Below, one piece after another: positions 2,911 to 62,911 of a stretch of DNA of 64,000 nt (positions are counted from its first letter, which is position 1; every line of letters starts with the position of its first letter). The translations under genes were made by a program, and so were the position numbers. The notes under the pieces are model-generated. The model searched no databases and was not told the DNA's origin. It was given only the letters and a program-made list of their open reading frames with translations. The DNA lies in IMG/VR virus record IMGVR_UViG_3300027742_000001, positions 1 to 64,000 of that record. The stretch is one strand, 5' to 3'. This DNA comes from a virus.

Positions 2911-4013
2911 ATGGAAACATACAAAAAAGTAAGAAAAACTTTAATAGACTTAGATAGATTTATTTTAAGAAATAATAATTCAAAGAATTGGTTTATGGAT
3001 GCTAATGCTTTATATGAATTTTATGAAGAACCTAAACATAATGGTTATGGTTGGTATAGAAATATAGAATATAAAAATAAGAGAAGATAAAGGAGAAACA
3101 ATGGAAGAATATTATGAAGTAGAAGTTCCTTATAGTGGTTATGTAAGAGGAGATATTATTTATAAAGTTAAAGCTACATCTAAACTTGAAGCAGTAATCT
3201 TAGTAAAGGAACACAAAGGAGAAGAGGTTACAAGAAATATTATTAGAGATGATACTTCTGAGGAGCTAGACTATGCAGAATGTTATGGAAAGTTTTTAGA
3301 TAATAATACTAAACTAAAAGAAGTAATAGAATTTCTTAAGGACTTAAAAACTAAAGGGTATCTTGATATGGATATGTACTTAGAAGATTTGCCTAAAGCA
3401 ATTAAAATATTAGAAGAATTAAAGGAGAAATAATGAAATTAACTATTAAAGAACACGCATATAAAAATGCTAAAAAGAGATGTGGATTAAATAAAAAGTC
3501 TTTTGATAAATTAGTACAAAACGCTATTAAAGGAGATATTAAATTACATAAAACTAAAAATCATTTAAACAAATGGATATGCTCTCAAACATTAAATCAT
3601 AAAAATATTATGAGCGTTTTAGTTTATGATAAATATTTATTACTTTATACTAATGATGTAGTAATTTCTGTTTATCAAATACCTCAAAGGTTATTACCTA
3701 TATCAAAATTTATTATTAAGGAGAAACAATGGACAACATAGACTACACACCTACAAGAAGTAATAGTTATGGAAGAGTACCTCCATTAGAAATTACTCTA
3801 GATACTTATCCTGAAGGATATATCAACAACAAAGCTATTGAGTACTTAATCTCTGAGTTTACTTTTTTAACAAAAAATATACTAAGTTATGAAGAAGCTT
3901 GTTCTTATTGGATACATAATTGTAATAATCAAGGAATAAAGTGTACTAAACAAGAAGTACAAGAAGCATATGATATTTGTTATGGTTATGGATGTGAGTT
4001 TGAGTGGAACTAA
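2911..4013 (+). CDS. Cluster of small hypothetical ORFs: 2911..3090 (not in track), 3101..3433, 3433..3741, 3729..4013
   Basis: Each has an AGGAG RBS and abuts or overlaps its neighbour. Confidence 0.7.
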
Positions 4014-4018
4014 TCTAA

Positions 4019-4051
4019 TTAAGTAAACTCTAAGCAAACACATTATATAAT
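4019..4051 (+). promoter_or_regulatory. Phage promoter, copy 2
   Basis: TTAAG-N6-CTAAG-N11-TATAAT. Confidence 0.75.
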
Positions 4052-4082
4052 ACATTTATAAAACAACAAAAAGGAGAAAAAC

Positions 4083-5434
4083 ATGAAAACAAACAAAATT
4101 AAAATCAAAGAAGAATTTATCCAAAAGGTAAAAACTGAAAAAGTAGGTGTTATTTGTAATACCCTTGAAGAAATTGAAGTATGGTATAACTTTTTAGATA
4201 AACATATGGATAAAGATTTAGGTAGGTACGATACTATGGAAGGTAAGAAATATGCAAAGGAGCGTAGGTTAGGTAAAGTTATTGCTAATAGTACTGCTTA
4301 TAAGAACATTTGTGAATTTAGTGGAAAAGAATATTTCTCTAAAAAAGGCTACACAATATATAACTTCAAAGATATTATTGAAGAAGAAACACCTCAAGTA
4401 AACTCACAAGAAATTGAAGTAGGAGATATTGTAGAGTTTATTAATCCTGATAGTAAAAATGCAAGTTACTTCAAAGGACATTTTACTAATTTAAAGGTTA
4501 AGGGTATTACAAGTGATAGAGACTATATTCATGTTTATTCAGAGGAATTAAAAGAGGCTTGGTATATAGATTTTGATGAAGTTAAACTAACAAGTAAAAG
4601 AGTTCCAACAGTAATTCCTAATCCGTTAACTTATGCAACAGAGTGTCCTAAAAAGGATACAACAGAACAACAAAGTCAACAAGAAAAATACTTAGTATAT
4701 GTTAATGGAAAAGGACAACCTAAAGTAAGACATACTTATGAAAATGCTGTTAAAGAAGCTAAAAGGTTAAGTGCTAAAGAAGTTAATAAAGAGGTTTATG
4801 TTGTACAAATTATGAACACATTTAAATCAGAAATTATTGTAAATGAAATATAAAGGAGAACAAATGAAAATTGAAAACTTAGAAAGGGTAATCTCACTAA
4901 AAGATGAATATGAGGCAATATTAAAACAAATAGAAACTATAAAAAACAATATAGATAGAGATGATTTATCATTTAGTTTATATGAGTATGGAGATAGTAG
5001 TGGCTTTTATATTGGAGATATTTATTACAAAGGAAACGTACCGAGTAATCTTTACAAAGGTATTTTAAAAGATGTTTTAGTAAGATTTGAAGCTCATAAA
5101 GAGTTATTACTAAAAGAATTAGAAGAGTTATAAGAGTTATAAGAACTATAAGAACTATAAAGGAGAATAAATGAAGAAAAATATAGAACAACAAATTAAA
5201 CAACAACAATTACAGTTATTACTTTACCAAGGGAAAGTTTTAATGAATCATACTTACGGGTTTGTTTATTCAGATTCTAAAGGGAAACAAGTTAAGATAA
5301 ATTGTGGTAAGAATAGAAAAGGTAAAGACTTCTCTTTTAGCAACCCTCAATATTGGAGAGTACTAAGTACTTTTGAGGGAATTATTGTTAAGTTAGGTTT
5401 ATATAAACTTATTAGTATTAAGTTTAAAAAATAA
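4083..5434 (+). CDS. Hypothetical ORFs 4083..4853, 4843..5133, 5171..5434
   Basis: AAGGAG RBSs and phage-like codon use; no recognised function. Confidence 0.7.
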
Positions 5435-6693: not shown

Positions 6694-7638
6694 ATGGAAG
6701 ATTATAAACAAAAACTTTTAGAATATCTTGAAACAAATGATTTAAAACATAAAGACTCAGGAAATAAGGTACAACACGTGTGTATTTCACCTAATCATTC
6801 AGAGGAAAATCCTTCAGCATTTACTTCTTTTGAAAATGAAGGGGAATACTATGTACATTGTTCTTCATGTGGATTTCATTTAAATATGACTCAATTAGTA
6901 GAATTTCTTGGAGGAAAGGTTGATAAAAAATTATTATTTAAAAACAAAATGGATAAAATGTTCAAAGAGTTCAAAGCTAAAAGAGAACTCCAAGAAAGTA
7001 AACCTAAAAATGATTGGAAAAATAGTATCTTTTTACCTCCTAAATATAAAGACTTCAAACAAAATTATAGAGGGATAAGTCCTAAAACATTTTCTAAAGT
7101 AAGTTGTTTTATAACAGATAGTAATCATTATTATAAAAAGAGATTAATTTTTCCGTTATATAATTATAAAAAAGAATTACAAGGATTTGATGCTGTCAGT
7201 ACAAGTAAAGATATTGTTCCTAAAGTTCTTCGTTCTAAGAATTGTAAAACAGATAATTTCTTTGGGTTTGAAGATTTGTTAAATCAAGAAGACTTCAAGG
7301 AAGCTAATACATTATTTATTAACGAAGGGTTATTCTCTGCTTTAGCTTTTATAGAATTAGGATATAAAGCAGTATATAACTTCGGAGTTGCTTCAATAGA
7401 AGACAAGCTTGAAGTTCTTTATAAAAGTAATATTAAACAAATAGTCCTTGTAGGGGATAAAGACTCAGCAGGATTTGAGTTTAATGGTAAGAGTTATCAT
7501 TTATTAAAGAAATCTTTTAAAGTAAAATTCTTTAAACACCCATGGAGTGCTTCTGAAAAGAGTGATTCAAACGACTATCTTAAAGAAGATAAACAAAAGT
7601 TACAAGAGTTAATAGATAAGACTCTTAAAATAATTTAA
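6694..7638 (+). CDS. DNA primase (Zn finger + TOPRIM)
   Basis: CISPNH...CSSC zinc-binding region, RLIFP, NEGLFSALA and GDKDSAG (DxD) TOPRIM motifs, DSND. Confidence 0.9.
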   Translation: MEDYKQKLLEYLETNDLKHKDSGNKVQHVCISPNHSEENPSAFTSFENEGEYYVHCSSCGFHLNMTQLVEFLGGKVDKKLLFKNKMDKMFKEFKAKRELQESKPKNDWKNSIFLPPKYKDFKQNYRGISPKTFSKVSCFITDSNHYYKKRLIFPLYNYKKELQGFDAVSTSKDIVPKVLRSKNCKTDNFFGFEDLLNQEDFKEANTLFINEGLFSALAFIELGYKAVYNFGVASIEDKLEVLYKSNIKQIVLVGDKDSAGFEFNGKSYHLLKKSFKVKFFKHPWSASEKSDSNDYLKEDKQKLQELIDKTLKII

Positions 7639-10492: not shown

Positions 10493-10915
10493 ATGAGCAA
10501 AAATAATATAACAAACAATATTCAACAAGCTAAAGAAGATTTTAGAGAGAATTCTTTAGTATTAAAAGTTAAACCATATACCTTAAGAAGATTTGATACT
10601 TATAATTATGTTGTTAGTACAGAGAAAACAAATAAAAATACTAATGAAGATTATGAAGTAGTTCTTGGGTATTATAGTTCTTTACATAGTGTTTTAGTAA
10701 GTTTATTCAAAAGAATTTACAAAAAATATCCTAGAAAAGAAGCTTTTGTTAAATATTACTTTTATAAAGCTAAGTTTGGAGTAAAAGATTTGAACGCAGA
10801 AGTTAAAAAAGAGTTTAATAAAGAGGTTAAATTAAGTAAAACTAAAGGTTATGTGTTCTATAATACTTACATAACAAATACAGAAGCTATTGATTTAGGA
10901 GCTATTAAGCCTTAG
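10493..10915 (+). CDS. Hypothetical protein
   Basis: AAGGAG RBS; 140 aa ORF. Confidence 0.7.
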   Translation: MSKNNITNNIQQAKEDFRENSLVLKVKPYTLRRFDTYNYVVSTEKTNKNTNEDYEVVLGYYSSLHSVLVSLFKRIYKKYPRKEAFVKYYFYKAKFGVKDLNAEVKKEFNKEVKLSKTKGYVFYNTYITNTEAIDLGAIKP

Positions 10916-54943: not shown

Positions 54944-54976
54944 ATTATATCAAAATAAACCTTAATAATAAGTTAA
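54944..54976 (-). promoter_or_regulatory. Phage promoter, copy 12 (upstream of tape measure gene)
   Basis: TTAAC-N6-TTAAG-N11-TATAAT on the minus strand. Confidence 0.7.
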
Positions 54977-54981
54977 ATAAA

Positions 54982-55329
54982 TTATTTATCCATTCTTTCT
55001 CTCTCAGATTTCTTTATTGCACTTTTTACTAATTTAGAAGCCACAATGAAAAAGTTAGATTGGTCTAATATTGTACCTTTATTCGGTAAATAACCCTCTG
55101 AATAATACTCATAAGATTCATAAGCTTCGTTGAGGTATTCCCAATTAATATTACTTAAAGGGCAACCCTCAAATTCATATTCATCAATAGTAAACTTCTG
55201 AGAAGGTAAATGTTTACTTCTTTTTATTGTACAATCTTTCTTTCTACAATCCCTTGCAATTTTATCCCTATCAGTACAACTTGAGCAGTCGAACTCTTTA
55301 AATTTATCATCAAATTGTACTGCTAAGGC
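54982..55329 (-). CDS. Tail assembly chaperone, -1 frameshift extension (gpGT-like); not in track
   Basis: 115-codon open -1 frame (ALAVQFDDKFKEFDCSSC...GCPL...GYLPNKGTILDQ...MDK*) with no start codon of its own, entered at A AAA AAG (55335..55329). Confidence 0.85.
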   Translation of the reverse strand, partial: ALAVQFDDKFKEFDCSSCTDRDKIARDCRKKDCTIKRSKHLPSQKFTIDEYEFEGCPLSNINWEYLNEAYESYEYYSEGYLPNKGTILDQSNFFIVASKLVKSAIKKSERERMDK

Positions 55330-55712
55330 TTTTTTAAACTTTCTATATCTTTACCTTTTAACATTGAAGTTACTCTGATAGAACTTGCTAAATCAGAAAT
55401 CCAATCTAAAGGTAATATATCCATAAATTTATCATCAATATCTTCTTCTTTAATTGTTTTAATTGAGTTATCTATTTCAATGTTTTCTACTCTAACAAGT
55501 TTTGCTTTAGACATATCATAATCAACTATTCCTTGTTCAGAAATTAATTTACCTTCTTCATTTTTAAATAACTGTGAATTATACTTTTCAAATTCCCTAT
55601 TAGATAGTGCTTTATAATAAAACTTAGTAGGTTTTTCTTCATCAATTTCCTCAGTAGGAATCCACTCGAACTCTTTCTCTAAGTCTAGTGTCACTAATTT
55701 TCTCTTTGCCAT
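55323..55712 (-). CDS. Tail assembly chaperone (gpG-like)
   Basis: Between tail tube and tape measure genes; ends in a slippery heptamer. Confidence 0.85.
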   Translation of the reverse strand: MAKRKLVTLDLEKEFEWIPTEEIDEEKPTKFYYKALSNREFEKYNSQLFKNEEGKLISEQGIVDYDMSKAKLVRVENIEIDNSIKTIKEEDIDDKFMDILPLDWISDLASSIRVTSMLKGKDIESLKKP

Positions 55713-55729: not shown

Positions 55730-56674
55730 TTAATTTAATTTATCTATGTTAAAAACATCTTTGTTAAATACTTCTGTATTGCCATTTGGTAAAAAACATT
55801 CTTTTCTTTTTACCTTATATTCTTTATAAAGATTTAAGTACCTTAGTTCTTCTTTGTAAGCATCTTCCCCTTTTAAGTATTTAGTAGATAGTAGTAAAAG
55901 AGGCTCATGCTCTCTAAACTCCTTAGCTCTAAATCTTTCTTTAATAGTGTTATCTTTAGTCGTTATTCCTATCTTGTAATAGTATTTCCCTTTATTTGTA
56001 AATCTGATATAATATAACCAAGTTGGTTTATCATAATAAGCTATAAATGTATTATCTGAGCTTCCCCTTTTCTCTTGTTTACATTCCTTACAAGATATAT
56101 GTCCTTTATATAAATGACTGATATGGCAGTCAAATATTGTATTATGCTCTAAACATTTTACACTATGTCTTCTTAATATTCTATCATGTTTTAATACTTC
56201 AAATTTATTAGGAAAAATAGAATCTACTTTATTTTGATAATATTCAAGGTCTTTTATTTGTTTATCTGAAGCATTTTTAGAGGCACACTCTTTACAAGTA
56301 TGCTTACCTTGTAATACTTCATAAGCGATTTGTTCAAACCATTTATTATGAATATTACATTTTAAGGTTACTTTATCATCTATTGTTTTATAGACTACTT
56401 TAGATAAATCTAATTTGTCACCCCATACCTCTTTAACTTTTTCTAAAAATCCTTTAGTAGTATGTTTATGTATCCTACCTTCACATTGAGGACACTTATT
56501 ACTTCTTTTATAGTTACCAAGTGTTCTATAAAACACATGATTACAATTTTTACAAGTAAATTTTATATTACTTTTAGCATTTTTATAATCTTTTTCATCA
56601 AAATAGAACTTACCATTTACAAGTTGAATCAATAACTTCTTAGTTTGTTCTACAGTTCTTTTCTTTTTTATCAT
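55730..56674 (-). mobile_element. Free-standing homing endonuclease-like gene (Zn-ribbon repeats + GIY-YIG-like)
   Basis: CxxC/CxxH repeats; LYYI...YKIGIT...RF...E...GNTEVF; same architecture as 20852..22003. Confidence 0.75.
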
Positions 56675-56677
56675 CCA

Positions 56678-56787
56678 TTAGCCTTTCTTACTAAGTGTCA
56701 GCTTAGTTTATTAATTTAAAGTAAGACCTCCTCTGACACAAAGTAGGCTATACTTTAGGAGGTCTTACTTTAAATTAATCTATTATA
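56678..56787 (-). ncRNA. Structured 5' leader (23-bp stem with two loop-downstream pairings)
   Basis: TATAAT at 56787..56782; perfect inverted repeat 56710-56732 / 56757-56779; GTGTCAG/CTGACAC and TAGCCT/AGGCTA complementarities. Confidence 0.65.
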
Positions 56788-56804
56788 TCTAAAGAGAAAG
56801 AACC

Positions 56805-56822
56805 TAGAAGAATTAACTTCTA
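56805..56822 (-). terminator. Terminator after tail tube gene
   Basis: TAGAAG-ttaatt-CTTCTA then GGTTCTTTCTCTTT. Confidence 0.55.
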
Positions 56823-58016
56823 AGCCTTTTTACTTGCTAAATACATAGCATTTCCACTTGAATCATTATTTGCCATAAATGTTAAATTTTGAGCAACTAC
56901 ACCCTCTGAGTCTGCTCTTTCAACAGAGGTTCTTGAAATATCTGCAAAGTACATAACAGCAGTATCACCATTACCATTTATCATTTCAATAAATAAAGTA
57001 GCACTTGCATTTTGTTTGAATTTAATTAGCTCTTGTAAATTTTCTAAATCTTTAGAGAAAGAGATTTCAACAGACTTAGATGTAACTAATTTTTGATAAA
57101 TACCAGTTGTATTAATACTTTCTCTATCTGCTACTGTGTTATTAATTGCAATAGAAACATCTCTTACTTGTGTAACTGTACTATCAAGACTAAATAAGAT
57201 ATTCTTTACAATAAATACATTATTAGCATCTCCACAAGTTAAGTTAGGTGGAGTAGGTTGCGATTGAGTATTAATAAATGTTTGTGTTCCATTTGCACTT
57301 GAAGAAGTAGTTAATAATTCACCTTGTGATAGGTTAAAAGTTAATGAATCAAAAACAATACCTCCAAAGTCAAGTACGGAGTCTGTATCCCCACCTTCAT
57401 ACTGTCTTACAGCTAAAGGAGCAACATCTTCTCCTAACTTTTGTAATCTATATAAATCATAAGAACCTGTTCCAGTAGTTACTTCAGTAACACTTGTTCC
57501 AGCAGTTACATTAGCCCCTTTTTCGATATAAGTTCCCATAGCATTTTTTATAACTAAATGAGGGTTTAATTTCCCAGCTTCTGTACCAGTTATAGGCAAT
57601 ACTGCAAGTTCAGCATCAATAGTACCACTATTTCCCTCTTGCCCCGATAAATTTTTACAAGCAACAAGGGATGGACTGAGATTATTTCTCTCTAATGACT
57701 CAATAGACATATTTAAACCTGAAGTTGTTTGAATAAGAACTGCATCAGCATCAACCCAAGCAGAACCAATATCAGCCCATCTATTTGTATCACTAAAATC
57801 TTCTGCTGTTAGGTCAACTCCTGTTTCATCTGCTGTACCTAAGAATCTATAAAGACTCCCACCATCACTAACAATAGTAGCAAGTGTACCTTCAGTTCTA
57901 GCTAATAAATCTGCTGAAATCTCTGTTGAAGCATAATCAGCTGTGCTAGCTTTTGCTTGACCAACAGTAGTTTCTTCACCTATTAGAACAACCGTCTGTT
58001 TAATTAATTTTGCCAT
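56820..58016 (-). CDS. Major tail tube protein
   Basis: Position between tail terminator and chaperone genes; VLIGEETTVG N-terminus, SIAINN. Confidence 0.8.
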   Translation of the reverse strand: MAKLIKQTVVLIGEETTVGQAKASTADYASTEISADLLARTEGTLATIVSDGGSLYRFLGTADETGVDLTAEDFSDTNRWADIGSAWVDADAVLIQTTSGLNMSIESLERNNLSPSLVACKNLSGQEGNSGTIDAELAVLPITGTEAGKLNPHLVIKNAMGTYIEKGANVTAGTSVTEVTTGTGSYDLYRLQKLGEDVAPLAVRQYEGGDTDSVLDFGGIVFDSLTFNLSQGELLTTSSSANGTQTFINTQSQPTPPNLTCGDANNVFIVKNILFSLDSTVTQVRDVSIAINNTVADRESINTTGIYQKLVTSKSVEISFSKDLENLQELIKFKQNASATLFIEMINGNGDTAVMYFADISRTSVERADSEGVVAQNLTFMANNDSSGNAMYLASKKA

Positions 58017-59765: not shown

Positions 59766-60035
59766 TTATTTAGCCTCTGTTTTAGCTTTAGTTCTTGGTG
59801 TTCTTTTTCTAGTAGTTTTTGGTTTAGGAGTTTCTTTTTTAGGTTCTTCAATTTTTGTTTCTTGTTTTTCTATCTGTTTTGTTTCTTTGACTTTATCTTC
59901 TTTAATTTCTATAAAAAGATTTGGTTGTTTTAAAAGTTCTTTACCAAGTTCCTCTGAAACTTCTACTTCACAAAATTTCTCGAAGTGAAGTCCATCAGTA
60001 ATTGTAAGACCTTTATGTCTATACTTTATCTTCAT
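59766..60035 (-). CDS. Small head-associated protein
   Basis: EVEVSEELGKELL plus Lys-rich tail; typical post-capsid ORF. Confidence 0.55.
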   Translation of the reverse strand: MKIKYRHKGLTITDGLHFEKFCEVEVSEELGKELLKQPNLFIEIKEDKVKETKQIEKQETKIEEPKKETPKPKTTRKRTPRTKAKTEAK

Positions 60036-60065: not shown

Positions 60066-61550
60066 CTATTTTATGTGTTTAATATATACTTTGTTACCAC
60101 AATCCCAATATCTTAAGTAATCATTATTCAACATATTTTCATATTCAGTTAGATTAGAATCATATACTTCTAGTTTATCTTTTAACTTATGCTTCATAAA
60201 CTTTTGTCTATTAAGTACCTCTAAAGAGCCTTCTTTAAAATAATAATAATTAGGTTTACTTTCATGTGTAAAATAAAAACCTAATGATTCATATAAAGAA
60301 CCATCAAATATGCTCTTATCACAATAACTAACTAAAGTTCCTTTAAAGTTTCTTTCAAAGTATTTTAATAACTTACTCGCTCCTCCAATAACTGAAGTGC
60401 CTAATTTGTTACAAAATCTTATAAGTTCATAATCATGTTTATTACTAAATCTAGATTTTCCAAAAGTCATTATTGATACTAAATCATTATTATAAATTAA
60501 CCCATACTTTAATGTGCTTGAAGAATATCCTTGTAAATGATTATCATTAATAAAATCTTTTGCTTCCTTTGTGCTTAACTCAACTAAAGTACATTTTCTA
60601 GCATATATTTTATTAGTAACAATTCCTAATCTCTTTTTGATTAAATCTTTTATTATGTCTTGTTTATTAATCCATTGGTGTTCAAAGATATGTAATAATT
60701 GAATCCCTTTTTGATTTGCTACGTTTGTCTTGTTTAAGTGATAATCTTTTGTTTTACCTCTTATACCTTCTGAGTGCCAATACAATCCATTATATTCAAA
60801 CCCTATTGCTAAATCTTCAATATAAACATCTATTTCTTTTAAATCTAAAATTCTACTATTTTGAGTTATCTCTTTATCTGTTAAAGATTGAATAAATTCA
60901 TATAGTACTATTTCACCTTTAGATTTAACATTTTGACATCCACAAGAAGTTTTAGAGCCATTTCTTATATAAGTATTTTGCCATTCAAAAACTTCATCAC
61001 AAAAAGGACATTTAAACTTAGAGATATATCTATCAAAATCTTTGTGCTTTTTTATATTAGGTTCAACTACCTCAATATTATTTAAAGTTTGACCTTTTTT
61101 TGGTTTTTGTTTTCTTAATGTACACCCACATGATTTTCTACCTTTTTTACTAACCTCTTTAATAGTAGTAATAAAAGAATCTCCACAGTCTACACATTTA
61201 AACTTAGCTTTTCTATCTTTATGACTTGATTCAGTTTTTTCAATAGGAAATAATTCAAGTATCTCTACATTATATTTACCAATCTTTTGTCCTACTTTAT
61301 ACTTATTGTAAGGTAATTGACACCCACAAGATATTTTAGCATTAGTTCTCCCTCGTATAACGTGGTCTAAACTAGCTTCAAAAGGTTCTTTACAAAAAGG
61401 ACATTCAAAAATAGCTCTCTTTTGACTTCTATTTTTACCTTCAGGAATCCAATAATCAGTAAGCATTTTAACTTTCTGAGTTCCTACGTAATCACCTTTA
61501 TTATATTTTCTATTTCTTAGTTTATTTTGCTTATTTTTTTCTGTATCCAA
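60066..61550 (-). mobile_element. Hef/Vsr-like PD-(D/E)XK endonuclease with Zn-ribbon repeats and a C-terminal Mom-like GNAT domain
   Basis: Three CxxC...SCGC repeats; SKGE...EIDVYI...FEYNGLYWHS; ELIRFC...GGASKLL...VSYCD...GSLYESLGF; RYWDCG. Confidence 0.75.
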
Positions 61551-61636
61551 CTATTAACTCCTTTTTGTTTTACTATAACATAAGGTAGCTTAATAATTAC
61601 TTAATACAAATACTAAGATATTGGGATTGTGGTAAC
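60093..61636. repeat. Perfect 23-bp inverted repeat pair (60093-60115 and 61614-61636)
   Basis: GTTACCACAATCCCAATATCTTA versus TAAGATATTGGGATTGTGGTAAC. Confidence 0.95.
61572..61604 (-). promoter_or_regulatory. Phage promoter, copy 13 (endonuclease gene)
   Basis: TTAAG-N6-TTAAG-N11-TATAGT on the minus strand, followed by AAGGAG and TTG. Confidence 0.7.
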
Positions 61637-61639
61637 TAA

Positions 61640-61663
61640 ACTAGAAGAAATTAATCTTCTAGT
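61640..61663 (-). terminator. Hairpin after major capsid gene (weak U-tract)
   Basis: ACTAGAAGA-ttaatt-TCTTCTAGT. Confidence 0.65.
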
Positions 61664-61669
61664 CTTTTA

Positions 61670-62911
61670 CTAAGCTATATTATATCCTAATACAACATAT
61701 TTTCTATCTGTATCAACTGGGAAGTTAGTTTCAGTACTATCATATAAACCACCAAACCCAACTCTACTTCTCATAGCCCAAGCTTGAGTATCATTTTTGA
61801 TATTTTCATCAGTTTTAACAGTTGTAGAACCAGCTTTCATATATGCTTTTAAGAAATCAACATTAGCCATGATTAATGAACCAAATGTATTTGAAGAAGT
61901 TTCAATGATTCCAGTAGCACCAACTTGAGGCATAAAGTCTAGTTGATATAGAGGCATACCATTAAATCTAGTTACAATATCACCATTACTAATGATTTGT
62001 CTTTCAAATACATCAGTAAATCTTGACATTCTTTGATAAGTTTTAAGGTCAGCAAATAAAGCAACTTTTCCTAAAGAAATTTGAGTATTAGTCATATATT
62101 TCCCACCTGAAGTTTGCATTTCAAATACTTTATCAAGGAATTGTGTATCAGATAGAGTTGAACCCCCAAAGTTTACTTTAGCTTTTTCAAAACCTAATCT
62201 TCTGATTCCTTTGAATTGAGTGATAGGGTTAGAAGCAGTTACAGCATTTCCATCAATATCAGTTTTATCCCAATCAGTACCATCAAATTCAGCTACAACA
62301 TTGTGTCCATTAGTAATTGCGTTTTCAAATGCTTCAGCGAAACCTTGTTGCATATCTCTAATAACACCAACAGCTAAATCAATCATAGAATCTTCTAAAG
62401 ACTCAGTTGAGATAACAGCATAAGACATTACTTTATCAACAACATATCTGAAGTGAGTGAAAGTTTGGTCAGAAGCAGTTGCGTCATCACCTTCTCCAAC
62501 TCTAAATACATTTAATCTAGTGTCTTGTAATGCTCTAGTAATAGATACATCCATAACTTCTTCCATTGGAATTAATGAAGAAAGTTTAATTGAATTCCAA
62601 GCATCTAAAATTAGTTGCCCTGAAGGTCCTGAAGGAATTAAATCACTAATATCAGAAGTTAAAAGTGATTTAGTAACACCTTTTGTTTCAGCATATGCTA
62701 AAATATCTTCTACATCTTCTTGTCCAAAAGACAACCCATTTTTTTCTTTAATAGACTTAACAGCCCAAGCAACATCTAATACTCTCATATCTTCTTTAGT
62801 TGCTCTTTTAACATTATAAGATGTATAATCTTTTGGAGCATTTGCTTTTGGCATTTTAGTTTCAGCTTTTTGTGAAACTTTCTTTTCAATCATTTTGTCA
62901 AATTTAGACAT
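61670..62911 (-). CDS. Major capsid protein (HK97 fold)
   Basis: LIP, RVGEG, ISTESLEDSMIDL, FENAITNG, FKGIR, RFNGMP, RVGFG. Confidence 0.9.
   Translation of the reverse strand: MSKFDKMIEKKVSQKAETKMPKANAPKDYTSYNVKRATKEDMRVLDVAWAVKSIKEKNGLSFGQEDVEDILAYAETKGVTKSLLTSDISDLIPSGPSGQLILDAWNSIKLSSLIPMEEVMDVSITRALQDTRLNVFRVGEGDDATASDQTFTHFRYVVDKVMSYAVISTESLEDSMIDLAVGVIRDMQQGFAEAFENAITNGHNVVAEFDGTDWDKTDIDGNAVTASNPITQFKGIRRLGFEKAKVNFGGSTLSDTQFLDKVFEMQTSGGKYMTNTQISLGKVALFADLKTYQRMSRFTDVFERQIISNGDIVTRFNGMPLYQLDFMPQVGATGIIETSSNTFGSLIMANVDFLKAYMKAGSTTVKTDENIKNDTQAWAMRSRVGFGGLYDSTETNFPVDTDRKYVVLGYNIA

What the first reader, a model, noticed from the sequence alone, without database searches (positions are those of the whole stretch)
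60066..61663. Endonuclease gene bracketed by a perfect 23-bp inverted repeat 1.5 kb apart
Seen: 61614-61636 is the exact reverse complement of 60093-60115, which codes the C-terminal LRYWDCGN; the match extends a few bases each side with single gaps. The upstream arm lies between the capsid hairpin (61640-61663) and the gene's own promoter (61604-61572). Inference: read-through late mRNA carries both arms and could form a 23-bp duplex looping out the whole nuclease ORF (an RNase III-type substrate), while transcripts from the gene's own promoter lack the first arm. This would silence or excise the nuclease message only in the abundant capsid transcript. Alternatives are terminal repeats of a mobile or invertible element, or a scar of an inverted second copy (the plus strand reads LRYWDCGN-stop).
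Basis: partly seen in the sequence, partly recalled or inferred. Interest (0 to 1): 0.85.

Follow-up and report, generated by a model that had tools for sequence, protein, structure and literature searches.

The report
Homing endonuclease gene closed by conserved stem
A selfish nuclease gene sits just after a phage's capsid gene, and a 23-base copy of its own end lies inverted in front of it; a diverged relative keeps the same pairing, so it probably forms a long RNA stem that silences the gene in late capsid transcripts, but no RNA data test this.

Summary
Window 61614-61636 is the exact reverse complement of 60093-60115. It is unique in the 91.9-kb genome and longer than any perfect inverted repeat in shuffled sequence.

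The enclosed gene (60066-61550, minus strand) is a single-copy Hef-like homing endonuclease gene (HEG) after the major capsid gene. The arm inside the gene encodes a motif conserved across the family (LRYWDCGN).

It is probably more than a scar:
- Three metagenome contigs from a diverged relative (capsid 85%, HEG 68% amino-acid identity) keep the same layout: capsid, terminator hairpin, arm, promoter, HEG.
- Their upstream arm is 21/23 identical to the window's, while the flanking non-coding DNA is 36-58% identical and the terminators are unrelated.
- Both changes in their arm give U·G pairs on the mRNA strand.
- The arm lies upstream of the gene's own replication-arm-class promoter, so only capsid read-through RNA carries both arms.
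- Folding pairs the arms with probability about 0.98.

80 other Hef loci lack such a repeat, so it is lineage-specific. RNase III cleavage is inferred, not shown. Earlier notes of this scan describe stem-closed nuclease cassettes on other DNA; I did not check them.

The parts
61670..62911 (-). Major capsid protein gene (413 aa, HK97-type). It is the upstream late gene whose transcripts can read into the cassette.
   Evidence: Pfam PF05065 E=1e-8; PHROG major head protein; homologues at 82-85% identity.
61640..61663 (-). Hairpin after the capsid stop (9-bp stem, U-rich tail); a likely weak intrinsic terminator.
   Evidence: Terminator scan. The relative L005-7 has an unrelated hairpin sequence at the same place.
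61614..61636 (-). 5' (upstream) arm of the long-range repeat. With bulges it extends to 61611-61643. Read on the opposite strand it is a fossil of a Hef 3' end ending in ...LRYWDCGN-stop.
   Evidence: It is 21/23 identical in L005-7, while the flanking non-coding DNA is 36-58% identical.
61572..61604 (-). The HEG's own promoter, of the phage's TTAAG-N6-TTAAK-N11-(-10) class. It lies downstream of the 5' arm, so its transcripts lack that arm.
   Evidence: 6 exact matches against 0.13 expected, and 19 against 2.9 at up to 2 mismatches. 16 of the 19 are on the plus-strand replication arm. L005-7 have the same motif and spacing.
61558..61563 (-). Ribosome-binding site (AAGGAG), 7 nt before the TTG start. 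It is not part of the 23-bp helix.
   Evidence: Read from the sequence. The AAAGGAG block is conserved in L005-7.
60066..61550 (-). Hef-like homing endonuclease gene (494 aa): N-terminal zinc-ribbon repeats plus the conserved Hef core and C-terminal domain. Single copy in the genome.
   Evidence: phrog_3339 E=2e-108 and phrog_559 E=5e-106; more than 5000 homologues, including annotated Campylobacter-phage Hef-like HEGs; single copy.
60093..60115 (-). 3' (in-gene) arm, coding residues 479-486 (LRYWDCGN), a motif conserved across the family. With bulges it extends to 60087-60119.
   Evidence: It is 24/24 identical between the window and L005-7, the longest identical run in the gene.
59766..60035 (-). 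Next late gene (89 aa, unknown function). It starts 30 nt after the HEG stop, with no terminator between, and its RBS would survive a cut at the stem.
   Evidence: A syntenic 79-aa gene follows the HEG in L005-7.

Best explanation
Shown: a free-standing Hef-like homing endonuclease cassette lies in the late structural operon of an uncultured AT-rich phage, directly after the major capsid gene. About 30 nt of the gene's own 3' end, the part coding LRYWDCGN, is present as an inverted copy at the 5' edge of the cassette. That copy sits between the capsid terminator and the HEG's own promoter, which belongs to the class used in the replication arm. A diverged relative keeps this copy complementary to the coding-constrained 3' arm. 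Inferred: the two arms work as a long-range RNA helix of 23 perfect pairs, about 30 with flanks, with a duplex energy near -42 kcal/mol. Only late transcripts that read through the capsid terminator carry both arms, so the HEG's own transcripts cannot form it. In read-through RNA the helix loops out the whole HEG message. It would most likely be a substrate for the host's double-strand-specific RNase III, or otherwise a block to ribosomes at the end of the ORF. Cleavage would separate capsid mRNA from the cassette. It would remove the last codons and the stop codon of the HEG message, which silences it. It would leave the downstream late genes on an RNA of their own. The selfish gene would then be expressed from its own promoter without being over-expressed from, or interfering with, the abundant capsid transcript.
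For: - The repeat is real and far beyond chance.
- The in-gene arm is native coding sequence. D483, C484 and G485 are invariant and the RYWDCGN block is conserved across 17 diverse Hef proteins. The upstream arm is therefore the derived copy.
- Relatives L005-L007 have the same order of parts and a 24-nt arm pair at 22/24.
- Neutral divergence between the lineages is high. Fourfold-site identity is 48-58%. Non-coding identity is 12/33 before the arm and 33/57 after it. The arm itself is 21/23, and the binomial P for 22/24 is about 3e-4 at p=0.58.
- The adjacent local terminator hairpins are entirely different sequences in the two lineages. This fits a local hairpin that is free to co-vary beside a long-range arm that must track a protein-constrained partner.
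- Both arm differences in L005-7 are U·G pairs on the sense strand and would be A·C on the antisense strand (duplex energies).
- The helix is in the minimum-free-energy fold of the 1.6-kb read-through RNA in both lineages, with mean pair probability 0.98.
- The promoter lies downstream of the 5' arm and belongs to a motif class otherwise used mostly on the replication arm.
- The only other perfect 23-bp inverted repeat in the window lies in the leader of the second HEG of the late arm, right after the tail tube gene.
- Phage HEGs are known to be restrained by terminators, RNA processing and hairpins that act on read-through transcripts (PMC2988022).
Against: - There are no RNA data of any kind, and the host and its RNase III are unknown. 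The phage encodes no RNase III itself.
- Only two lineages could be compared. L005-7 are near-identical to each other, so there is no true compensatory double change in the core.
- The U·G pattern is weak evidence. About 70% of possible transitions in this arm would be wobble-compatible, and AT pressure favours C-to-T.
- The 3' arm lies inside a translated ORF, where ribosomes would unwind it. Thermodynamic folding of a 1.6-kb RNA ignores translation and kinetics.
- The in-gene arm's 24/24 identity between lineages is only marginally the longest run (next are 23, 20, 20). Protein constraint plus codon bias explains it.
- 80 other Hef-like loci lack any such repeat, so the family does not need it.
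- Conservation of the upstream arm could also reflect a DNA-level role or gene conversion from the in-gene arm.
Confidence: 0.45

Rival explanations
1. Neutral scar. The upstream arm is only the leftover 3' end of an older or duplicated Hef gene that lay in the opposite orientation. Most of that gene was later deleted. The arm's identity to the in-gene arm reflects the strongly conserved motif, AT-biased codons, occasional gene conversion and chance. It has no function.
For: Read on the opposite strand the region is a recognisable Hef C-terminal fossil in both lineages. Hef genes do occur in adjacent and convergent pairs (L008, L013, L027, L031, L040, L081). The TGGGATTGTGG core is nearly universal in AT-rich Hef genes. 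The fossil's flanks have decayed with indels. Other Hef loci manage without such a repeat.
Against: A neutral 24-nt stretch should have diverged like its surroundings, which are 36-58% identical, yet the arm is 21/23 identical between lineages and 23/23 and 22/24 complementary within genomes. Its position between terminator and promoter is kept in both. Gene conversion across 23-24 bp is at the limit of recombination substrates and would also produce inversions, which are not seen in the 4 sequences.
Confidence: 0.27
2. DNA-level protein site. The arm is conserved because a protein binds it as double-stranded DNA. The protein could be the endonuclease itself, using the arm as an uncleavable mimic or half of its homing site to regulate its promoter as I-TevI does, or a phage regulator acting at about -50 to -70 of the HEG promoter.
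For: The arm lies about 49-71 nt upstream of the predicted transcription start. It is more conserved than the promoter itself. I-TevI autorepression through an operator resembling its homing site is established (reviewed in PMC2988022).
Against: The 18 other promoter-motif matches in the window have no copy of the arm, even with 3 mismatches allowed. This model gives no reason for the site to be the reverse complement of the gene's own 3' end. No HEG-less allele was available to check for the sequence as a target.
Confidence: 0.12
3. Terminal inverted repeats of a transposon-like or invertible DNA segment. The 1.54-kb unit would move or flip by recombination at the arms.
For: A gene bracketed by a perfect 23-bp inverted repeat resembles an insertion sequence or an invertible switch. 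In the window the fossil is followed by a stop codon, so an inverted allele would still give a closed ORF.
Against: There is no transposase or invertase. The sequences outside the arms continue the inverted repeat and show no direct duplication, so there is no target-site duplication. One arm is native coding sequence of a non-transposase gene. The unit occurs once in the genome. All four sequences have the same orientation. In L005-7 an inverted allele would not close the ORF.
Confidence: 0.04

Closest known systems
RNA-structure control of phage homing endonuclease genes (T4 I-TevI, I-TevII, I-TevIII, segB; Aeh1 mobE), reviewed in PMC2988022
   Same: A HEG embedded in a polycistronic phage operon. 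The RNA structure forms in transcripts that start upstream, and the gene's own promoter lies inside or after the 5' arm. Terminators and RNA processing limit HEG expression.
   Different: The known cases are local hairpins of tens of nucleotides that sequester the ribosome-binding site. Here the arms are 1.5 kb apart, the RBS is not in the helix, the 3' arm is inside the ORF's last codons, and the own promoter is of the replication-arm class rather than late. Nothing has been tested experimentally.
RNase III processing stems that flank 16S/23S rRNA, and intervening sequences (IVS) of 23S rRNA, some carrying ORFs or HEGs (PMC6582327, PMC4990558, PMC11270868)
   Same: Complementary segments far apart pair into a helix of more than 20 bp, which loops out the intervening RNA and is cut by RNase III. 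Selfish inserts are removed at the RNA level without a ribozyme.
   Different: Those elements lie in stable RNA genes with both arms outside any ORF. Here the host is a protein-coding operon, no re-joining would be needed, and a cut would truncate the insert's own ORF.
Phage lambda sib retroregulation of int
   Same: An RNase III substrate that is complete only in transcripts from one promoter, so the same gene is expressed from one promoter and destroyed in RNA from the other.
   Different: sib is a local hairpin 3' of int, completed by read-through of a terminator at the 3' end. Here the discriminating arm is at the 5' end and the helix spans the whole gene.
Hef of phage U5 and the Hef-like homing endonucleases of Campylobacter phages (PMC2988022; GenBank annotations seen)
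   Same: The protein family is the same: 51-55% identity over the C-terminal 270 residues, with the same conserved motifs including WDCG. They are free-standing genes in phage genomes.
   Different: None of the 80 other Hef-like loci examined has a leader-to-3'-end inverted repeat. The insertion site next to the capsid gene is new.

Membership tests
Hef-like homing endonuclease family | Significant full-length sequence match to family profiles and annotated members | tested here: met
   phrog_3339 E=2e-108 and phrog_559 E=5e-106. 51-55% identity to annotated Campylobacter-phage Hef-like HEGs over the C-terminal 55% of the protein.
Hef-like homing endonuclease family | Conserved core residues kept (family-invariant acidic and histidine columns, C-terminal WDCG motif) | tested here: met
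   34 invariant columns in a 17-sequence alignment, including E252, H259, H271, K274, H287, D483, C484 and G485, are all present in the window protein.
Hef-like homing endonuclease family | Site-specific DNA cleavage and homing into HEG-less alleles | not testable with these tools
RNase III substrate | Uninterrupted double-stranded RNA of about two helical turns (20 bp or more) formed by one transcript | tested here: met
   Prediction only: 23 perfect pairs plus flanking pairs, duplex energy -42.3 kcal/mol, present in the MFE fold with mean pair probability 0.98. L005 gives -40.5 kcal/mol and 24 pairs including 2 U·G.
RNase III substrate | Actual cleavage by RNase III, with staggered cuts in both strands | not testable with these tools
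   There are no RNA data, the host is unknown, and the phage encodes no RNase III.
T4-type HEG translational-control hairpin | The helix sequesters the ribosome-binding site or start codon | tested here: not met
   The RBS at 61558-61563 and the start at 61548-61550 lie outside the 23-bp helix at 61614-61636.
T4-type HEG translational-control hairpin | The gene's own promoter lies within or after the 5' arm, so its transcripts escape the structure | tested here: met
   The promoter motif at 61572-61604 is 10 nt downstream of the 5' arm in the window and is likewise placed in L005-7.
rRNA-type intervening sequence (stem-closed insert) | The insert interrupts a stable RNA gene and both arms lie outside any ORF | tested here: not met
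   The host is a protein-coding operon and the 3' arm covers codons 479-486 of the HEG.
Insertion sequence / transposon with terminal inverted repeats | A transposase gene and a target-site duplication outside the repeats | tested here: not met
   The only ORF is a Hef-like HEG. The outer flanks continue the inverted repeat and show no direct duplication. The unit is single-copy.

The most novel reading that the evidence does not exclude
A homing endonuclease cassette has built its own excision stem by copying its 3' end, inverted, to its 5' border. Host RNase III then cuts the selfish gene out of the abundant late capsid message without a ribozyme and without re-ligation, while the gene stays expressible from its private promoter. 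This would be an mRNA counterpart of rRNA intervening sequences. With the 23-bp stem in front of the second HEG after the tail tube gene, it would point to a general strategy: double-stranded RNA insulators that let HEGs settle next to a phage's most highly expressed genes.
Probability: 0.33. Interest if true: 0.75.

Novelty: new variant of a known kind. Interest (0 to 1): 0.55.

Why it matters
Homing endonuclease genes must avoid harming the operons they invade. The known solutions in phages are self-splicing introns, inteins, local RBS-sequestering hairpins, internal terminators and RNase E sites.

A conserved helix spanning a whole 1.5-kb gene, made from the gene's own coding end and present only in read-through RNA, would add a new solution. 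It would also show how such a device can arise in one step, by a short inverted duplication.

The idea is directly testable with RNase III in vitro and with compensatory mutations. It also suggests a search criterion for other selfish genes in viral operons: complementarity between the 5' leader and the 3' coding end. If it proves to be only a scar, it still documents that this locus has been turned over by Hef genes in both orientations.

Tried and rejected
**Searches that gave nothing useful**
- Relatives of the capsid protein or the HEG in IMG/VR: none close. The capsid found none and the HEG found only a 34% hit, L004.
- The exact 23-mer and a degenerate arm pattern in IMG/VR: 0 hits.
- The degenerate arm pattern in GTDB genomes: three single hits in unrelated MAGs (L088-L090), none with an inverted partner (at least 8 mismatches). 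My frame for their translation was off by one, so I did not establish what they encode.
- GenBank phages: only distant Hef hits by DNA and none for the capsid protein.
- The genome search 'relatives' is not available for virus records.
The Logan, ENA and other JGI contigs that encode the closest HEGs and capsids (P0002, P0004, P0005, P0007, P0122-P0130) could not be read. The single metagenome scan returned only L005-L007.
- Pfam and PDB sequence searches gave no informative domain for the HEG.
- Literature searches found no description of a HEG bracketed by such a repeat.

**Ideas rejected**
- The HEG inserted into the centre of a pre-existing palindrome. Rejected because the in-gene arm encodes a family-wide motif.
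- The repeat is a family-wide feature of Hef genes. Rejected because 80 loci show background values only.
- The fossil extends a further 30 nt (I2). That similarity coincides with the TTAAG promoter boxes, so I do not count it.

**Weak or failed tests**
- A duplex-energy z-score test over long segments was too noisy to use.
- One candidate compensatory change next to the core (first base of codon 487) is not kept in L007 and is too weak to cite as covariation.

Full report
**Observation.** Window 60093-60115 and 61614-61636 are exact reverse complements, 23/23. With one mismatch the repeat is 26 nt. With single-base gaps it spans 60087-60119 / 61611-61643. Allowing 3 mismatches, the 23-mer occurs only at these two places in the window and in the whole genome. 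That genome is a 91,913-bp virus record with direct terminal repeats. None of 100 shuffles gave any match. The longest perfect inverted repeats in 20 block shuffles were 16-19 nt.

**What lies there.** All the genes below are on the minus strand.
- 61670-62911 encodes an HK97-type major capsid protein.
- A 9-bp hairpin with a U-rich tail follows at 61640-61663.
- 60066-61550 encodes a 494-aa protein that matches homing-endonuclease PHROGs at E about 1e-108. Over its C-terminal half it is 51-55% identical to the annotated Hef-like homing endonucleases of Campylobacter phages. It is the only copy in the genome.
- It has a strong RBS and a TTG start.
- The next late gene starts 30 nt after its stop.

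**Origin of the arms.** In an alignment of 17 diverse family members, D483, C484 and G485 are invariant and the surrounding RYWDCGN block is conserved. The in-gene arm is therefore ordinary Hef coding sequence, and the upstream arm must be a copy of a Hef 3' end in inverted orientation. Read on the opposite strand, the upstream region gives ...LRYWDCGN-stop in the window and ...LKYWDYGNEV in the relatives. I considered that the gene had inserted into a pre-existing palindrome and rejected it for the same reason. A weaker extension of the similarity (I2) coincides with the TTAAG boxes of the promoter, so I do not count it.

**The promoter.** I checked it.
- TTAAG-N6-TTAAK-N11-TANNNT occurs 6 times, against 0.13 expected.
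- With TATAAT and up to 2 mismatches it occurs 19 times, against 2.9 expected. 16 of the 19 are on the plus strand between 2.8 and 36.4 kb.
- That arm carries the replication genes: family-A polymerase, DnaB-like helicase, Toprim primase and an SNF2-type helicase.
- The copy at 61572-61604 (minus strand) lies 10 nt downstream of the upstream arm.
- The HEG therefore has a private promoter of the replication-arm class inside the late structural arm, and transcripts from it lack the 5' arm. Only RNA that reads through the capsid hairpin carries both arms.

**Relatives.** IMG/VR, GenBank phages and GTDB genomes gave no close relative. The single metagenome scan returned three contigs from three samples, L005-L007. 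They are syntenic: capsid 85% and HEG 68% amino-acid identical, followed by the same downstream genes.
- All three carry the inverted repeat. A 24-nt upstream arm pairs with the same coding stretch at 22/24, extended to 30 nt at 87% in L005 and L006.
- The order capsid stop, hairpin, arm, TTAAG-class promoter, AAAGGAG, start is the same. The hairpins, however, are unrelated sequences.
- Divergence between the lineages is high. Fourfold-degenerate sites are 48-58% identical. Non-coding DNA is 12/33 identical between the capsid stop and the arm, and 33/57 between the arm and the start codon, even though that stretch holds the promoter and RBS.
- The arm is 21/23 identical. The binomial P for 22/24 is about 3e-4 at p=0.58 and 7e-3 at p=0.68.
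- This pattern fits a functional long-range pairing. A local hairpin can change both arms together, while an arm whose partner is fixed by protein coding has to stay put.
- The two differences in the relatives' arm both give U·G pairs on the sense strand and A·C on the antisense strand.
- The U·G evidence is weak, because most possible transitions in this arm would be wobble-compatible and AT pressure favours C-to-T.
- The in-gene arm is the longest identical run between the two HEGs, 24 nt. The margin is small (23, 20, 20), so it shows no clear extra constraint.

**Folding.**
- Duplex energies are -42.3 kcal/mol (window), -40.5 (L005) and -37.2 (L007).
- In full folds of the 1.6-kb read-through RNAs of the window and of L005, every arm position pairs with its distant partner in the minimum-energy structure. 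The mean pair probability is 0.98.
- These calculations ignore translation and kinetics, and the 3' arm lies inside a translated ORF.

**Generality.** In 80 other Hef-like loci from IMG/VR, the longest exact complement between the WDCG-coding region and the leader is 6-11 nt. The best wobble-tolerant helix scores 8-16, against 22.5-23.75 for the window and L005-7. The repeat is therefore specific to this capsid-adjacent lineage. Several of those loci hold adjacent or convergent Hef pairs. This shows how an inverted Hef end could come to lie next to a Hef gene.

**A parallel in the same genome.**
- The only other perfect 23-bp inverted repeat of the window is a local hairpin at 56710-56779.
- It lies in the leader of a second endonuclease gene (55730-56674), directly after the tail tube gene.
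- In L007 this second gene is absent. The tube gene is followed directly by the homologue of the window's next gene.
- So both HEGs of the late arm sit behind a highly expressed structural gene and its terminator, and each is associated with a 23-bp perfect duplex.
- That hairpin was flagged in another note (e1-5979757), and I did not analyse it further.

**Mechanism.** The best-supported reading is a long-range RNA helix that exists only in read-through late transcripts. The most likely consequence is cleavage by the host's RNase III. That would detach the capsid message, remove the HEG's last codons and stop codon, and leave the downstream late genes on their own RNA. Blocking of ribosomes is an alternative consequence.
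- Shown: the repeat, its origin, its conservation, its position relative to hairpin and promoter, and its predicted stability.
- Inferred: formation in vivo, cleavage, and any effect on expression.
- The phage encodes no RNase III and the host is unknown.
- Rivals: a neutral scar kept by chance or gene conversion (0.27), a DNA-level protein-binding site such as an autoregulatory operator (0.12), and terminal repeats of a mobile or invertible unit (0.04). The last is opposed by the absence of a target-site duplication, a transposase, further copies or inverted alleles.

**Comparison with known systems.**
- T4-type HEGs are restrained by local RBS-sequestering hairpins with a promoter inside the hairpin, by internal terminators and by RNase E sites (PMC2988022). 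The logic is the same here, but the helix spans the whole gene and does not cover the RBS.
- The geometry resembles the RNase III stems flanking rRNAs (PMC6582327) and ORF-bearing intervening sequences (PMC4990558, PMC11270868). Here, though, the host is a protein-coding operon and one arm is inside the ORF.
- Lambda sib retroregulation is a mirror-image analogue (textbook knowledge).
- Literature searches found no description of such a bracketed HEG.
- Earlier notes of this scan report stem-closed nuclease cassettes in tmRNA, tRNA, rRNA and one operon of other genomes. They suggested the IVS comparison. They are unchecked by me and are not evidence.

**Verdict.** This is a new variant of known HEG control, of moderate to good interest, pending RNA data and more lineages.

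Noticed in passing
window 55730-56835 (minus strand); L007:4925-5152: A second homing-endonuclease-like gene (314 aa, zinc-ribbon repeats) sits directly after the tail tube gene. Its leader holds the window's only other perfect 23-bp inverted repeat, a local hairpin at 56710-56732 / 56757-56779. Relative L007 lacks this gene: its tube gene is followed directly by the homologue of window gene 55323-55712. That gives an empty-site allele, with the insertion lying between the shared terminator and the shared RBS region.
   Followed up: partly
window 2845-36383 (+), 54944-54976 (-), 61572-61604 (-): A phage-specific promoter motif, TTAAG-N6-TTAAK-N11-TATAAT, has 19 matches at up to 2 mismatches against 2.9 expected. 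16 of them are on the plus-strand replication arm. The same motif and spacing stand before the HEG in relatives L005-L007.
   Followed up: partly
window 7417-7459 and 10727-10769: A 43-nt inverted repeat, 79% complementary with an 18-nt perfect core, lies 3.3 kb apart in the early/replication arm. It was not examined.
   Followed up: no
L006:143-200 compared with L005:2088-2135: L006 carries an 11-nt tandem duplication (GGTATTTAAAG) in the capsid terminator region relative to L005 and L007. This is micro-variation next to an unchanged arm.
   Followed up: no
L081:2023-3460 (+) and about 3570-5114 (-); also L008, L013, L027, L031, L040: Hef-like genes often occur as adjacent pairs: tandem in Campylobacter-phage records and convergent tail-to-tail in L081. 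Pairs in opposite orientation, such as the convergent pair in L081, naturally create inverted copies of the WDCG-coding end.
   Followed up: no
proteins P0007 and P0147 (no DNA held): A 49%-identical Hef-like HEG (P0007) and a 57%-identical capsid cluster member (P0147) are both recorded on a Logan contig of 20,347 nt. A more distant relative may therefore carry a HEG at the same locus. The DNA could not be fetched.
   Followed up: no
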